From NCBI RefSeq assembly GCF_056712565.1, contig NZ_CM160072.1: a stretch of 64,000 bases of DNA. The stretch is one strand, 5' to 3'. Below, piece by piece: positions 30,001-36,000 of this stretch. The position numbers are program-made. Each line of letters opens with the position of its first letter. The stretch's first letter is position 1.

Positions 30001-33000
30001 AAGTTGAACTGATTGAGAGCATCCGACTTCATCAACTGTCATCAACTTTCGACGTTGTAACAGGCAAAGGCGTTCGTCAGGAAGTACTGGAGGCTGCTAA
30101 AGACAGCCCTGAGTTCGAAGAACTGATGGATGCCTATCGGCGAGAGGCAATGGCAATTATCGCCCGCTGGGATCTGGCGGATCAGCTTGATGGACAGAAG
30201 GACGCGGCATGAAACCGGGAATTTATTTCGGCATCAGCAACGAAGACTACCACGCAGGTGACGGCGTGAGTAAGTCGCAACTGGACATGGTTGCCAAGAA
30301 TCCGGCGCTTCTTAAATGGGTTCAGGCAGCACCAGAAGACGAAGAGAAAAAGTCTGCATTGGATATGGGAACCGCATTGCACTGCCTGCTTCTGGAACCT
30401 GGAGAATTCGACAAACGCTTCATCGTGTCACCGAAATTCGATCGTCGGACAAAACAAGGTAAAGCTGACGAAGAAGCATTTCTTCGTGATGTGGCGGATA
30501 TGGGTATTACGGTACTTGATGTCGAGCAGTGGCGAAAACTTGAGCTCATGCGTGATAGCGCAATGGCTCATCCGGCGGCACGCTGGATGTTGGAAGCACC
30601 TGGTTACTGCGAAGCATCAATGTACTGGAACGATGAAGAGACGGGTGAGTTGTGCCGAATTCGTCCAGACAAATGGCTGAACGAGCACAACGTGATCGTC
30701 GACGTGAAAAAGGTTGCAGATATGGACCGTTTTGCACGCCACATCGAGGAATTCCGCTACCACGTGCAGGACGCAATGTACCGCGAAGGCGCAACGAGGG
30801 TTACTGGTCAACCGCATGGTTTTTTCTTTCTTGCCGTGAGCGAAAGCATTGATTGTGGTCGGTATCCGGTACGCGTGTTCGAGTTGGATGCGCCGGATGT
30901 CGATGCCGGGCACGCTCTGTTCCGCCGGGATCTGAATACCTATCACGAATGCCGCATCAACGATGAGTGGGGCGGAGTGGAAATTATTAAACGCCCTGAC
31001 TGGGCACGTAAACAGGATATGTACGTATGAGCAATGATATCGCAATCACATCACAACCAGGCGCAACTGTAGGTACTGCTGCGGCAATCTTCAGCCCGGA
31101 GGGCATGAATCAACTGGTGCGTTTCGCGGAGTTGATGTCACAAAGCAAAGCGACTGTACCGAAACATCTTGAAGGCAAACCTGCCGATTGTCTGGCGGTG
31201 ACCATGCAGGCGGCACAGTGGGGAATGAACCCTTTCGCCGTGGCGCAGAAAACGCATGTGGTAAACGGAACGTTAGGCTACGAAGCACAGTTGGTAAACG
31301 CGGTCGTATCCTCTTCCAGCCTGCTGGCGACACGCCTGAATTATCGCTGGAGCGGTGACTGGTCGAATGTTAACGGCAAAACAGATAAATCACCGAATCT
31401 GACGGTAACTGTGTCAGCAGTTCTTAAAGGAGAAGCAGAACCCCGTGAGCTTACCATCAGTATGGCGCAAGCCGGAGTGCGTAACTCTCCATTGTGGGAA
31501 CAGGATCCGCGCCAGCAGCTTGCCTATCTTTGCACGAAACGATGGGCTCGCCTGCACGCTCCTGATGTGCTTCTCGGTGTTTACACCCCTGACGAATTAC
31601 AGGAAACGGCACCGCGCGTTGAGCGAGACATTACTCCGCAAACAACTACTGCTGCGGGAATGAACAGTCTGATCAACGCTAAACCAGTGAAAAAGCCTGA
31701 TGAGCAAACTCGTAAAGCGGATAGCCGTGATCCAGAAGAAATGCTGATGGCCTTTACCAGCGCAGCGATGAATTACAGCACTGTCTCCGAACTGGATAAG
31801 GCTTACAAATACATTGCACAAAAACTTTCAGATGATGACGAACTGCTGGCAAAAGCCACCGACGTTTACAGCGTTCGTCGGGAAGAATTAAACGAAACAT
31901 CTATGTAACCACCACCGCGGCGCCACACGCGCCGCACTGCAACCAAGAGAGGTATTTATGAAAGGTGCATTAGGTAAGAAGGAACTCCTGGCGGTGGTGC
32001 CACTGTCATGGAGCACTATCGACCGTATGGAGCGCGCAGGGGAATTTCCTAAACGCTGGTATATCACTGACAAACGCTGCGCATGGAACCGTGACGAAGT
32101 TGAGCGTTGGCTTGATGAACGTCAGGCAGCAAGCCCGGCAGAGTTCCAGGGTAAAAAACCTCCTGTTCAGCAACGTGTATATCGTCCCGTGAGCAACGCT
32201 GCATGAGTGCGCTGCTAAGGCACTGGAGCAAATGGTCAGGATGGTACTTATTCCTGGCCTCTGTTTCAGCATGGCTTTATCTGCTGGCATTAATTTTCAG
32301 AGAGGGTTGGATTAAGTGAGAAAGTTAAGCCGACTTGAAAAATATCACATGAATAAGGTTTCAATGCGCAGTCCGTCAAAGATTGTCGCCGTTACTCCTG
32401 CGGCGATAGAGATCGAAAAACGCGCGATTGAAAGAGAGAAAAAAGGGCAATTCCGCATTGCCGCTCACCTTTGGCTTCAGTGTATGGATGTTGCTTCTGG
32501 TGATGTTGAACGTGCAAGGATCGCGGTTCGCAGGGACCAATGTATCACAAAAGGTAACGGCCTTCGCCGTGGCGACTATAGCGGCATAGGATGTTGTGGG
32601 GTGGTTTATGACTAAGAAATACACACTAATCTATGCAGATCCACCCTGGGTATACCGGGACAAAGCCGCAGATGGTAATCGCGGTGCCGGTTTTAAATAT
32701 CCGGTTATGAGTGTGCTGGATATCTGCCGCCTTCCTGTGTGGGATTTGGCCGATGAAAACTGTCTGTTGGCCATGTGGTGGGTGCCAACACAACCACTCG
32801 AAGCACTAAAAGTTGTTGAAGCCTGGGGATTCCGTCTGATGACGATGAAGGGCTTCACGTGGATAAAATGTGGTAGTCGACAACCAGATAAACTGGTTAT
32901 GGGTATGGGACACATGACTCGCGCCAATAGTGAAGATTGCCTGTTTGCGGTAAAGGGAAAACTACCTACGCGCATTAATGCAGGGATCGTTCAGTCATTT

Positions 33001-36000
33001 ACCGCACCGCGGCTTGAGCATTCAAGAAAGCCAGATATCGTTCGTGAAAAACTTGTGCAATTATTAGGCGATGTTTCTCGCATTGAACTGTTCGCCCGCC
33101 AGACGTCTCATGGCTTCGATGTTTGGGGTAATCAGTGCGAAGACCCGGCAGTGCAACTACACCCTGGATACGCGTTGGATATTGGCGGATTAACAAATGC
33201 ATTCAGCAATGCTCCGCTGTCACCAACAGACATCCAGGGGCGGGAGCGTGCTGCATGAACAGGGCATCACCAGCAGATTTAAGAAAATGCCTTGAAACTG
33301 CAAACATGCTTGCACACAGCGGGATCAGGTTTGTTCCAATTCCCGCTGTCACTGATGCTGAATTTGCAACACTGTCAGCAATATTCGAAAACAAAATTGA
33401 ATCACTGGCAGCAGAAGCAGAGATGGAAGAAAATCAGCAGAACTATTAAACGTTATTCCCCCGCCATCCACTTCTCAAACTTCGACGGGGAGAACGGAAT
33501 CAGATCCGTATGCTCCCCGTCAATCCATGAATCAATCATATCGGCCCACTGCTGCAACATGTAGGCGCGCTGTCTGGCGTATTCCGCTTTGTTATATACG
33601 GCGCTCACACCTTTCTGCTCATGTGCCAGAGCCTTTTCAATCCAGTCTGAAGGATAACCAGCCTCATGCAACAACGTACTGGCTGTACGGCGCATATCGT
33701 GTACGGTGAAGCCCTGAATATGCTCACCATCTTCATTTATTATTTTCACCGTTCTGTCGATCAGAGAGTTCAGCGCGGCATTAGATAATGGCTTCCGGAA
33801 ATTGTAACGACCAGGAACCAGATATTCACTTCCACCAGCGCACATCTGCAACCCAACCAATATATCCTGTGCCTGTTTAGGCAGGTAAATAACGTGCGCC
33901 CGGCTTCCCTTCATGCGGTCTGGAGGAATTGTCCATGTCCATTTTTTAAAATCTATTTCATCCCACGTTGCATTGGTGAATTCGCCCTTACGAACCATAG
34001 TGATAAGCACCAGTTTTAAAGCCATTTTCATAGTGCCCATAGCACCAATGGCATCCAGCGTGCGGAAGAACAGGCCAATTTCTTCTGGTGTCAGTGTTCG
34101 CTCTCGTGGTTTAAATATGGCGATAGACGAAGGTTTAATGTCAGCCGCAGGATTAAACAAACCATGACCACGGTCATTGGCGTGACGGTATACGCTACTG
34201 ATGATCTCCCTGGCCTGCACTGCTGTTGCCCGGCCACCGCGTTCGACAATCCGGTCACACAAATCACGAACCATTGATGTGGTAATTTCAGCCATCATTT
34301 TATTGCCAAGAACCGGAAGTATGTCACGGTCGATCACCGCCTGTTTCATTGCGCGGGTACTGTCAGCCAGGATGACGTGTTTCATATAACTGTCGGTATG
34401 TACCGCAAACGTCTCGGCACCACGAATCTTTTTGATACCGTCACGTTTAGCCGCAGCCGGTGACTGGCCTGCTTTAAGCAGCTTCTTTGCAGCAATCAGT
34501 TCTTCTCGCGCTTCTGCCAGGCTGATACCGTCACGCCCATACTGCCCGATTACCAGTGTTTCGCGGCGACCGTTGATACGGTAGTCATAGCGAAACGAGA
34601 CCGTGCCTGACGTAAGCACAGCTACATACAGCCCGTCACGATCGGAGACCTTGTACAGTTTGTCCTGCGGCTTGAGATTTTTTAATTTTGTATCGGTAAG
34701 CACAATTCACCCGTATAGAAACCATTTTCATGACGGTATGAGAGTATACCTTTAAGGTAATACCGTCACCTGTACCGACGAAAAATATGGTGTAGAGTGA
34801 ATAGAAATGAATACATAAAAACAAAAACCCTCTGTAAAAACAGAGGGTTAAATTAGTATCTGAATAGGAATGAGTTGCTATGAGTTAGCTGTTAATCATT
34901 CCCACTCAATAGTTGCTGGTGGCTTGCCGCTGATGTCATACACCACGCGGGAAATACCATTCACTTCATTGATAATGCGGTTGGAAACGCGGCCGAGGAA
35001 GTCGTACGGCAGATGTGCCCAGTGTGCGGTCATAAAGTCGATGGTTTCGACAGCACGCAGAGAGACAACCCAGTCATACTTACGACCATCGCCCATTACG
35101 CCAACGGAACGTACTGGCAAGAAGACGGTGAACGCCTGGCTGACTTTGTCGTACAGGTCCGCTTTACGCAGTTCTTCAATGAAGATGGCGTCAGCACGGC
35201 GCAGCAGGTCACAATACTCTTTCTTCACTTCTCCCAGAACACGAACGCCAAGGCCTGGTCCCGGGAACGGGTGACGGTACAACATGTCATACGGTAGGCC
35301 CAGCTCCAGACCAATCTTACGCACTTCGTCTTTGAACAGCTCTTTCAGCGGTTCAACCAGGCCCATCTTCATCTCTTTCGGCAGGCCACCCACGTTGTGG
35401 TGAGATTTGATGACGTGTGCTTTACCGGTTGCAGAAGCAGCAGATTCGATAACGTCAGGGTAGATGGTGCCCTGCGCCAGCCACTTCACGTCTTCCAGTT
35501 TCAGCGCTTCTTCATCGAATACTTCAACGAAAACGCGACCGATAATTTTACGTTTTGCTTCCGGATCGTTTTCGCCAGCCAGCGCTGACAAGAAGCGATC
35601 TTCTGCCGGTACGTGAACAATGTTCAGACCAAAGTGATCGCCAAACATATCCAGAACCTGCTCTGCTTCGTTGAGACGCAGCAGGCCGTTGTCGACGAAT
35701 ACGCAAGTCAGGTTTTTACCGATAGCGCGGTGCAACAGCATTGCGGTAACGGAGGAATCCACGCCACCAGAGAGGCCGAGGATGACTTTATCGTCGCCCA
35801 CTTGCTCGCGGATGCGGGCTACAGCGTCGTCGATAATTTTCGCTGGCGTCCACAGGGCTTCACACTGGCAGATATCACGCACAAAACGCTCCAGCATGCG
35901 CATACCCTGGCGGGTGTGAGTCACTTCCGGGTGGAACTGTACGCCATAGAAGCGTTTTTCTTCGTTGGCCATGATGGCAAACGGGCAGCTTTCGGTGCTG

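What the first reader, a model, noticed from the sequence alone, without database searches (positions are those of the whole stretch)
32608..33258. Orphan MT-A70 adenine methyltransferase in the early-left operon
The DPPW motif identifies an N6-adenine methyltransferase with no adjacent restriction endonuclease. Such phage enzymes typically protect against host restriction or modulate gene expression, and the target motif is unknown.
Basis: partly seen in the sequence, partly recalled or inferred. Interest (0 to 1): 0.4.

Follow-up and report, generated by a model that had tools for sequence, protein, structure and literature searches.

The report
Known prophage MT-A70 adenine methyltransferase
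The gene is a real, intact and already annotated adenine methyltransferase of a phiV10-like E. coli prophage, whose close relatives have been shown to methylate GATC like the host Dam enzyme, so the finding is correct but ordinary.

Summary
Window 32608-33258 (+) encodes a 216-aa MT-A70 family methyltransferase. Pfam PF05063 matches it over its full length (E 2.6e-22), and DPPW sits at residues 11-14. It is 100% identical to RefSeq WP_024187597.1 and 98% identical to phage phiV10 gene p33. It occurs in 538 of 5426 complete E. coli genomes.

It is the second-to-last gene of the early-left operon of a phiV10-like (Uetakevirus) prophage integrated beside guaA. No restriction endonuclease gene lies nearby. 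The gene is under strong purifying selection (dN/dS about 0.05), and its model superposes on METTL3 and MTA1.

"Target unknown" is out of date:
- The 83%-identical Stx-phage enzyme M.EcoGV is reported to methylate GATC in vivo.
- A 42%-identical Serratia phage enzyme was also shown to be GATC-specific.
- A 2024 paper reports that the Stx-phage homologue, bound to a partner called PNB-2, prefers 16S rRNA. PNB-2 is absent from this window.

Most likely this is a stand-alone Dam-like GATC methylase expressed on induction. It is already known and of low interest.

The parts
32608..33258 (+). MT-A70 family (beta-class) N6-adenine methyltransferase CDS, 216 aa
   Evidence: Pfam PF05063 E 2.6e-22 over the full profile. 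100% identical to RefSeq WP_024187597.1 and 98% to phiV10 p33. AF2 model matches METTL3 and MTA1. dN/dS about 0.05.
32638..32649 (+). Codons for catalytic motif IV, DPPW (residues 11-14)
   Evidence: Read from the sequence. D11, P12 and W14 are invariant in alignments A1 and A3. The motif aligns with the DPPW of MTA1.
33079..33135 (+). C-terminal conserved block R-I-E-L-F-A-R ... W-G-N-Q (residues 158-176), the inferred AdoMet-binding region of the permuted MT-A70 fold
   Evidence: R158, I159, E160, F162, W173 and G174 are invariant across 27 homologues. The block aligns with the 'eiFAR' block of MTA1. Its role in cofactor binding is inferred from family knowledge and was not tested.
32316..32615 (+). 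PerC-family small regulator gene immediately upstream. Its start is ambiguous (GTG 32316, ATG 32349 or ATG 32364). Its stop overlaps the methyltransferase start (ATGACTAA).
   Evidence: Pfam PerC E 6e-7. PHROG 868 'transcriptional activator' E 5.7e-62. The overlap is visible in the sequence.
33255..33449 (+). DUF1382 gene, 64 aa, last gene of the operon. It shares an ATGA start/stop overlap with the methyltransferase.
   Evidence: Pfam PF07131 E 1.8e-30. A homologue follows the methyltransferase in Stx phage F004 (49% identity).
31958..32206 (+). AlpA-family excisionase/regulator gene in the same operon
   Evidence: Pfam Phage_AlpA. PHROG 66 'excisionase and transcriptional regulator'.
30209..31908 (+). 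Recombination genes of the same operon: a PD-(D/E)XK nuclease (DUF3799) at 30209-31030 and RecT at 31027-31908
   Evidence: Pfam hits.
29696..29724 (+). Sigma-70-like promoter match (TTGACA, 17-nt spacer, AATCAT). It is a candidate early-left promoter, downstream of the repressor gene's terminator at 29625-29644.
   Evidence: Consensus scan only. phiV10 has a terminator annotated at the equivalent place and none further down the operon.
29020..29604 (+). Prophage repressor-like HTH gene upstream of the operon
   Evidence: Pfam HTH_3. Equivalent to phiV10 p40, which is annotated as similar to the putative repressor of epsilon15.
33453..34703 (-). P4-type tyrosine integrase, convergent with the operon. 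It marks the prophage end next to guaA (34896-36473, minus strand).
   Evidence: Pfam Arm-DNA-bind_3 and Phage_integrase. Annotated context.

Best explanation
The gene encodes a stand-alone ('orphan') beta-class MT-A70 N6-adenine methyltransferase of a phiV10-like temperate podophage. It is the second-to-last gene of the leftward early operon, which runs: small ORFs, PD-(D/E)XK nuclease, RecT, AlpA, PerC-like, methyltransferase, DUF1382. I infer that it is transcribed mainly when the prophage repressor is lifted. I also infer that it transfers a methyl group from AdoMet to N6 of adenine using the DPPW pocket, probably as a homodimer, as beta-class enzymes generally require. Its most likely substrate is the A of GATC in double-stranded DNA, that is, a phage-borne Dam-like activity. 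This would keep rapidly replicating phage DNA fully methylated at GATC. That would protect it from restriction enzymes that cut unmethylated GATC in new hosts, and extra Dam-type activity may also alter how easily the prophage is induced. Shown here: the family, the intact motifs, the fold, the orphan status, the operon position and purifying selection. Inferred: the GATC specificity (from characterised homologues), the timing of expression and the biological role.
For: Family and integrity: Pfam MT-A70 E 2.6e-22 over the full profile; PHROG 359; PADLOC MTase_II; PDB sequence matches to Tetrahymena MTA1 (E 4e-13) and METTL3 (E 6e-6); an AF2 model with pTM 0.76 whose best Foldseek matches are METTL3 (E 2e-14) and MTA1 (rmsd 2.9 A); DPPW and the C-terminal block are conserved; dN/dS 0.04-0.06 against Stx-phage and Enterobacter phage Tyrion homologues; 79 of 80 IMG/VR copies are intact.

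Orphan status: the neighbours are PerC, DUF1382, AlpA, RecT and the integrase, with no nuclease or defence hit. Homologues at 70-78% identity sit in unrelated slots, between NinB and NinD or after the lysis genes, again without a restriction enzyme.

Operon: a terminator follows the repressor gene, then a promoter-like site, and no intrinsic terminator is predicted before the end of DUF1382. The phiV10 annotation agrees.

GATC: the O104:H4 Stx-phage methylase is 83% identical over residues 1-187. M.EcoGV is reported to methylate GATC in vivo and is listed as a GATC 'Dam homolog' (PMC10810198, PMC6602927). BZS1_p32 is 42% identical and in the other subclade, and it gave MboI resistance and DpnI sensitivity in a dam- host (PMC7556043). 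The same paper cites M.EfaBMDam of Tn1549 as GATC-specific. Characterised members on both sides of this protein therefore share GATC.
Against: No methylation data exist for this exact protein. Gong et al. (PMC10810198) found that the purified Stx-phage homologue alone had only weak, non-specific activity on DNA, including dam- DNA. They argue that the GATC methylation seen for M.EcoGV could be an artefact of overproduction. I could not confirm from REBASE that the P13374 methylase is M.EcoGV; that link rests on statements in the papers. GATC frequency in the prophage (observed/expected 0.74) is uninformative. A Dam-like enzyme in a Dam+ host has no obvious need, so the biological role is conjecture.
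Confidence: 0.6

Rival explanations
1. It is a 16S rRNA adenine methyltransferase, like the phiPA8 Stx-prophage enzyme M.EcoPA8orf6770P. It would modify host 30S subunits and thereby raise the spontaneous induction frequency of the prophage.
For: The phiPA8-type catalytic subunit is 83% identical over residues 1-187. Gong et al. report that the holoenzyme is more than 13-fold more active on RNA than on DNA and prefers 16S rRNA in 30S subunits, with a phenotype that depends on DPPW. The closest solved folds include the RNA enzyme METTL3.
Against: In that work the rRNA preference was conferred by the partner PNB-2, the product of the gene directly upstream. I identified the phiPA8-type locus by the terminator sequence quoted in the paper. 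PNB-2 has no homologue in this 64-kb window (best tblastn E 0.11) or in any of 80 phiV10-like IMG/VR loci. Here the upstream gene is an unrelated PerC-family protein. The modified rRNA base was never identified in the paper. The C-terminal 29 residues differ from those of the Stx-phage enzymes.
Confidence: 0.1
2. It is a DNA adenine methyltransferase with a different or relaxed specificity, such as a short degenerate motif, giving broad anti-restriction protection to phage DNA.
For: Phage and plasmid orphan methyltransferases are often promiscuous, for example M.EcoGII, M.EcoGIX (SAY) and the Serratia phage OS31 methyltransferase. In some methyltransferase families specificity changes at 68-76% identity. 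The protein lacks a 24-aa insertion present in the GATC-proven BZS1/HK639 subclade. The purified Stx-phage homologue showed weak, non-specific activity.
Against: Those promiscuous enzymes belong to other families, either the 349-aa DPPY beta class or the alpha class. Every characterised bacterial or phage MT-A70 relative with a reported DNA motif has GATC.
Confidence: 0.2
3. It is a silent or non-functional passenger gene with no activity of consequence.
For: Prophage methyltransferases are commonly not transcribed in lysogens. No expression data exist for this gene.
Against: Catalytic and cofactor motifs are intact. dN/dS is about 0.05 with saturated synonymous divergence, and 79 of 80 related viral contigs keep an intact ORF with DPPW. 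The gene is retained in about 10% of complete E. coli genomes.
Confidence: 0.05

Closest known systems
phiV10 p33 (YP_512288.1, 'DNA methyltransferase / putative adenine methylase') and RefSeq WP_024187597.1 'MT-A70 family methyltransferase'
   Same: The same gene: 100% identical to WP_024187597.1 and 98% to phiV10 p33. It has the same position between the PerC-like gene and DUF1382 next to the integrase, and the same prophage type and guaA integration site.
   Different: Nothing of substance differs. The recombination genes further up the operon are mosaic variants.
M.EcoGV / M.EcoPA8orf6770P, the MT-A70 methylase of Stx2a phages (P13374, phiPA8, F004, P27)
   Same: 83-84% identical over residues 1-187, with the same DPPW. 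It is integrase-proximal and is followed by a DUF1382-type gene in F004.
   Different: The C-terminal tail differs. The Stx phages of the phiPA8, P13374 and F004 type carry the wHTH partner PNB-2 directly upstream, and this prophage does not. The literature disagrees on the substrate: GATC DNA or 16S rRNA.
Serratia phage vB_SspM_BZS1 p32 and Escherichia phage HK639 gp35 (the long subclade of phage MT-A70 enzymes)
   Same: The same family and motifs, an orphan enzyme, located near the integrase. BZS1_p32 has been shown experimentally to be GATC-specific. BZS1 also has a small ANR/PerC-like gene directly upstream.
   Different: Only 42-45% identical. This subclade has a 24-aa insertion after residue 91 that is absent here.
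Eukaryotic MT-A70 enzymes: METTL3-METTL14 and ciliate MTA1-MTA9
   Same: The same permuted Rossmann fold and DPPW catalytic motif. These are the best structural matches.
   Different: About 20-25% identical. The eukaryotic enzymes are obligate heterodimers with an inactive paralogue and extra RNA- or DNA-binding subunits. Here there is a single 216-aa protein with no paralogue in the window.
E. coli Dam and the Dam enzymes of phages T4, P1 and VT2 (alpha class, PF02086)
   Same: The predicted target (GATC) and their orphan status.
   Different: An unrelated motif order and family. Any shared specificity would be convergent, as the authors of PMC7556043 noted.

Membership tests
MT-A70 / Ime4-like beta-class N6-adenine methyltransferases (PF05063) | Match to the family profile above the curated threshold over the whole domain | tested here: met
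   80 bits against a cut-off of 23.9, E 2.6e-22, profile positions 1-172 of 172.
MT-A70 / Ime4-like beta-class N6-adenine methyltransferases (PF05063) | Catalytic motif IV [DNS]PP[YFW], here DPPW, placed N-terminal to the cofactor-binding region (permuted order) | tested here: met
   DPPW lies at residues 11-14. The conserved RIELFAR...WGNQ block lies at 158-176. Both align with MTA1.
MT-A70 / Ime4-like beta-class N6-adenine methyltransferases (PF05063) | MT-A70 three-dimensional fold | tested here: met
   AF2 model with pLDDT 78 and pTM 0.76. The top Foldseek PDB matches are METTL3 (E 2e-14, TM 0.63-0.67) and MTA1 (rmsd 2.9 A over 179 columns).
MT-A70 / Ime4-like beta-class N6-adenine methyltransferases (PF05063) | AdoMet-dependent N6-adenine methylation activity | not testable with these tools
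   This needs expression and a methylation assay.
Orphan (solitary) methyltransferase | No cognate restriction endonuclease gene adjacent or in the same operon | tested here: met
   Genes from 29758 to 34703 are small ORFs, PD-(D/E)XK/RecT recombination genes, AlpA, PerC, DUF1382 and the integrase. The tested neighbours have no PADLOC hits. The phiV10 and RefSeq annotations agree.
Dam-like GATC-specific bacterial/phage MT-A70 subgroup (M.EcoGV, BZS1_p32, M.EfaBMDam) | Close homology to members whose specificity has been determined | tested here: met
   83% identical to the O104:H4 Stx-phage methylase and 42% to BZS1_p32. Specificities are taken from the papers.
Dam-like GATC-specific bacterial/phage MT-A70 subgroup (M.EcoGV, BZS1_p32, M.EfaBMDam) | Methylation of the adenine in GATC | not testable with these tools
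   This needs a DpnI/MboI assay or a methylome in a dam- host.
phiPA8-type 16S rRNA methyltransferase holoenzyme (M.EcoPA8orf6770P + PNB-2) | Catalytic subunit homologous to M.EcoPA8orf6770P | tested here: met
   83% identical over residues 1-187 to the F004/phiPA8-type protein.
phiPA8-type 16S rRNA methyltransferase holoenzyme (M.EcoPA8orf6770P + PNB-2) | Co-transcribed PNB-2 (wHTH) partner that directs the enzyme to rRNA | tested here: not met
   There is no PNB-2 homologue in the window (best tblastn E 0.11) or in 80 related loci. The upstream gene is PerC-family.
Type II restriction-modification system | Paired endonuclease of matching specificity | tested here: not met
   No nuclease other than the recombination PD-(D/E)XK exonuclease paired with RecT.

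The most novel reading that the evidence does not exclude
The small PerC/ANR-like protein encoded immediately upstream (stop/start overlap here, and also directly upstream of the GATC-proven BZS1 enzyme) might be a substrate-directing partner of the methyltransferase. It would play the role PNB-2 plays in Stx phages or METTL14 plays for METTL3. The pair would then methylate a specific RNA or a restricted set of DNA sites to tune prophage induction or host virulence-gene expression.
Probability: 0.05. Interest if true: 0.55.

Novelty: already known. Interest (0 to 1): 0.15.

Why it matters
As a discovery it matters little. The gene is annotated in RefSeq and in phage phiV10, and about a tenth of complete E. 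coli genomes carry it. Its one useful aspect concerns a live disagreement in the literature: are prophage MT-A70 enzymes Dam-like GATC DNA methylases or, with the partner PNB-2, 16S rRNA methylases that control Stx-prophage induction? The phiV10-type copy is 83% identical to the disputed enzyme but naturally lacks PNB-2. It is therefore a convenient natural control for separating the intrinsic activity of the catalytic subunit from partner-directed activity. It also shows that this enzyme is not confined to Stx-encoding phages, contrary to what that paper suggested.

Tried and rejected
1. From memory I suspected that phage T1 Dam belongs to this family. tblastn against 50,697 phage records gave 517 hits, and no T1-like phage appeared in the rows listed. 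I dropped the lead.
2. M.EcoGI and M.EcoGII (non-specific) and M.EcoGIX (SAY, single-strand-specific) were considered as relatives. M.EcoGI and M.EcoGII are 349-aa DPPY enzymes of a different family. M.EcoGIX is a plasmid-borne enzyme, and neither paper on these enzymes mentions MT-A70. I rejected them.
3. GATC and other palindrome frequencies were compared between the prophage and the flanking chromosome to look for a specificity signal. GATC observed/expected was 0.74 against 0.85, which is uninformative.
4. An Rfam scan of 28000-35000 found nothing.
5. A search for an att direct repeat between the int-guaA spacer and the rest of the window found only chance 10-15-mers. The left prophage end was not located and probably lies at or beyond the window start.
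6. An IMG/VR scan was meant to test the PerC-methyltransferase association across divergent phages. It returned mostly near-identical phiV10-like loci. Within them PerC overlaps the methyltransferase in 63 of 78 loci, but 1-3 inserted genes separate the two in the rest. In other phages the slot is filled by DUF1317, a DndB-like gene, DUF4060, NinB or PNB-2. An obligate PerC partnership is therefore not supported.
7. The paper by Fang et al. (2012) could not be retrieved. M.EcoGV's specificity is cited second-hand.
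Full report
**Observation.** The + strand carries an ORF from ATG 32608 to TGA 33258 encoding 216 aa. 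A GTG four codons upstream could extend it. All homologues begin at the same M-x-x-K-Y position, and RefSeq annotates exactly these coordinates (L001 20309-20959 corresponds to window 32608-33258). DPPW is encoded at 32638-32649.

The call does not rest on the tetrapeptide alone:
- Pfam MT-A70 (PF05063) matches residues 5-176 over the complete profile at E 2.6e-22.
- PHROG 359 'DNA methyltransferase' matches at E 3e-120.
- A PADLOC type II methyltransferase model matches at E 2.7e-77.

**Where it sits.** The window is E. coli chromosome carrying a phiV10-like prophage (genus Uetakevirus, epsilon15-like podovirus) next to guaA.
- The 1161 bases around the gene are 100% identical to several complete E. 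coli genomes, and 538 of 5426 genomes carry the segment at 95% identity or more.
- The segment is 98.4% identical to phage phiV10, where the gene is p33, 'DNA methyltransferase / putative adenine methylase'.
- The gene order is: repressor-like HTH gene (29020-29604), terminator (29625-29644), promoter-like site (29696-29724), two small ORFs, PD-(D/E)XK nuclease (30209-31030), RecT (31027-31908), AlpA (31958-32206), PerC-family gene (to 32615), methyltransferase, DUF1382 (33255-33449). The integrase follows on the opposite strand (33453-34703), then guaA.
- No + strand intrinsic terminator is predicted inside the operon, and phiV10 has none annotated there.
- The PerC stop overlaps the methyltransferase start (ATGACTAA), and the methyltransferase stop overlaps the DUF1382 start (ATGA).

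'Early-left operon' is therefore a fair description by analogy with lambda pL. The promoter is only a consensus match.

**Is it intact and functional?**
- Alignments of 11 and 27 homologues keep D11, P12, W14 and a C-terminal block (R158, I159, E160, F162, W173, G174) invariant.
- PDB sequence search finds Tetrahymena MTA1-type chains (E 4e-13) and METTL3 (E 6e-6).
- An AlphaFold model (pLDDT 78, pTM 0.76) has low confidence only in loops 19-21 and 98-105 and in the C-terminal tail. Its best Foldseek matches are METTL3 (E 2e-14) and MTA1 (rmsd about 2.9 A).
- Against Stx-phage and Enterobacter phage Tyrion homologues, dN/dS is 0.04-0.06 with saturated synonymous sites. 79 of 80 related viral contigs keep an intact ORF with DPPW.

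**Orphan status.** No neighbour has a nuclease or defence-system signature other than the RecT-associated exonuclease. Homologues at 70-78% identity are found between NinB and NinD of lambdoid prophages and after a lysis cassette, again without an endonuclease. The gene behaves as a mobile single-gene cassette.

**What is known about the family.** Three lines of literature bear on the target.
1. Bujak et al. (PMC7556043) cloned the MT-A70 enzyme p32 of Serratia phage BZS1 in a dam- host and found MboI resistance and DpnI sensitivity, which indicates GATC. They cite the GATC-specific MT-A70 enzyme M.EfaBMDam of Tn1549 and list HK639 gp35 as a 75% homologue. The window protein is 45% identical to HK639 gp35 and 42% to BZS1_p32. 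It lacks a 24-residue insertion that defines that subclade.
2. M.EcoGV of E. coli O104:H4 is listed as a GATC 'Dam homolog' carried on Stx2 prophages (PMC6602927). It is described as methylating GATC in vivo when overproduced and as highly similar to the phiPA8 enzyme (PMC10810198). The methylase of the O104:H4 outbreak Stx phage P13374 is 83% identical (155 of 187) to the window protein. That this protein is M.EcoGV is my inference from those statements. REBASE was not available, and the paper by Fang et al. (2012) could not be retrieved.
3. Gong, Chakraborty and Koudelka (PMC10810198) report the following for the phiPA8 enzyme:
   - Alone, it is only weakly active.
   - It forms a 1:1 complex with PNB-2, the product of the gene directly upstream.
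   - The complex then prefers 16S rRNA in 30S subunits.
   - It raises spontaneous induction in a DPPW-dependent way.

**Testing the rRNA model here.** The terminator sequence quoted in that paper identifies the phiPA8-type locus in Stx phage F004 (L005): antirepressor, terminator, PNB-2, methyltransferase.
- PNB-2 has clear homologues upstream of the methylase in P13374 and, one gene removed, in HK639 (54% identity).
- It has none in this window (best tblastn E 0.11) and none in 80 phiV10-like IMG/VR loci.
- A defining component of the rRNA holoenzyme is therefore missing here, which lowers that reading.
- The paper's remark that the enzyme is apparently unique to Stx phages is not borne out. 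Close homologues are common in non-Stx prophages of Escherichia, Salmonella, Klebsiella, Enterobacter and Hafnia.

**Could the PerC-like neighbour be a partner?**
- It overlaps the methyltransferase in 63 of 78 phiV10-like loci.
- In the remaining loci, inserted genes of 150-1100 bp (DUF1317, DUF1382, a DndB-like gene) separate the two.
- BZS1 has an ANR-family gene directly upstream of its methyltransferase. It is 25% identical to the PerC-like protein and shares invariant residues with it. This is a mild recurrence.
- Other homologues have unrelated upstream genes.

I treat a partnership as unlikely but not excluded.

**Conclusion.** The most probable activity is Dam-like GATC methylation of DNA on prophage induction. 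Its role is inferred to be keeping phage DNA fully methylated, and possibly modulating induction. The rivals are partner-dependent 16S rRNA methylation (a key component is absent here), a different or relaxed DNA specificity, or silence.

Expression in a dam- host is the decisive experiment. Novelty: already known. Interest: low.

Noticed in passing
window 32316-32615 (+): A PerC-family (weakly ANR-like) small regulator gene lies immediately upstream and overlaps the methyltransferase start. PerC homologues activate virulence loci in EPEC and EHEC. An ANR-family gene 25% identical to this one also sits directly upstream of the GATC-specific methyltransferase of Serratia phage BZS1.
   Followed up: partly
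window 33447-33455: The early-left operon (DUF1382 stop at 33449) and the integrase gene (stop at 33453, minus strand) converge with a 3-nt gap and no predicted terminator between them. Read-through from the operon would be antisense to int.
   Followed up: no
window 30209-31908 (+): The recombination module is mosaic. Here it is a DUF3799 PD-(D/E)XK nuclease plus a 293-aa RecT. phiV10 has a fused RecE-RecT ORF, and strain Combat2C1 has YqaJ plus a 340-aa RecT at the same position, although the methyltransferase segment is identical.
   Followed up: partly
window 20817-20893 (+): A tRNA-Arg (anticodon TCT) gene lies inside the prophage, between the structural genes and the terminase genes. It is also annotated in the Combat2C1 prophage.
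   Followed up: no
L003 (HK639) 29975-30400; L013 (P13374) 3525-3878; L005 (F004) 3572-3964: Homologues of PNB-2, the reported rRNA-directing partner, accompany MT-A70 genes in both the short (Stx-phage) and the long (HK639) subclades, which are only about 45% identical. The PNB-2 association is therefore older and wider than Stx phages. HK639's enzyme is 75% identical to a proven GATC DNA methylase.
   Followed up: partly
protein P0003 (297 aa): One metagenomic contig encodes an apparent PerC-MT-A70 fusion (PF06069 + PF05063, 97% identical to the window protein). It is probably a frameshift or sequencing artefact at the 8-nt overlap.
   Followed up: no
L008 (Salmonella phage SPC32N) 1437-2504: In SPC32N a 355-aa gene annotated 'DNA-sulfur modification protein' is inserted directly upstream of, and overlaps, the MT-A70 gene.
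   Followed up: no
window 2174-3019 (+): A gene with a Bro-N domain (antirepressor-like) lies near the left end of the window, beyond the tail genes. The left prophage boundary was not found within the window.
   Followed up: no
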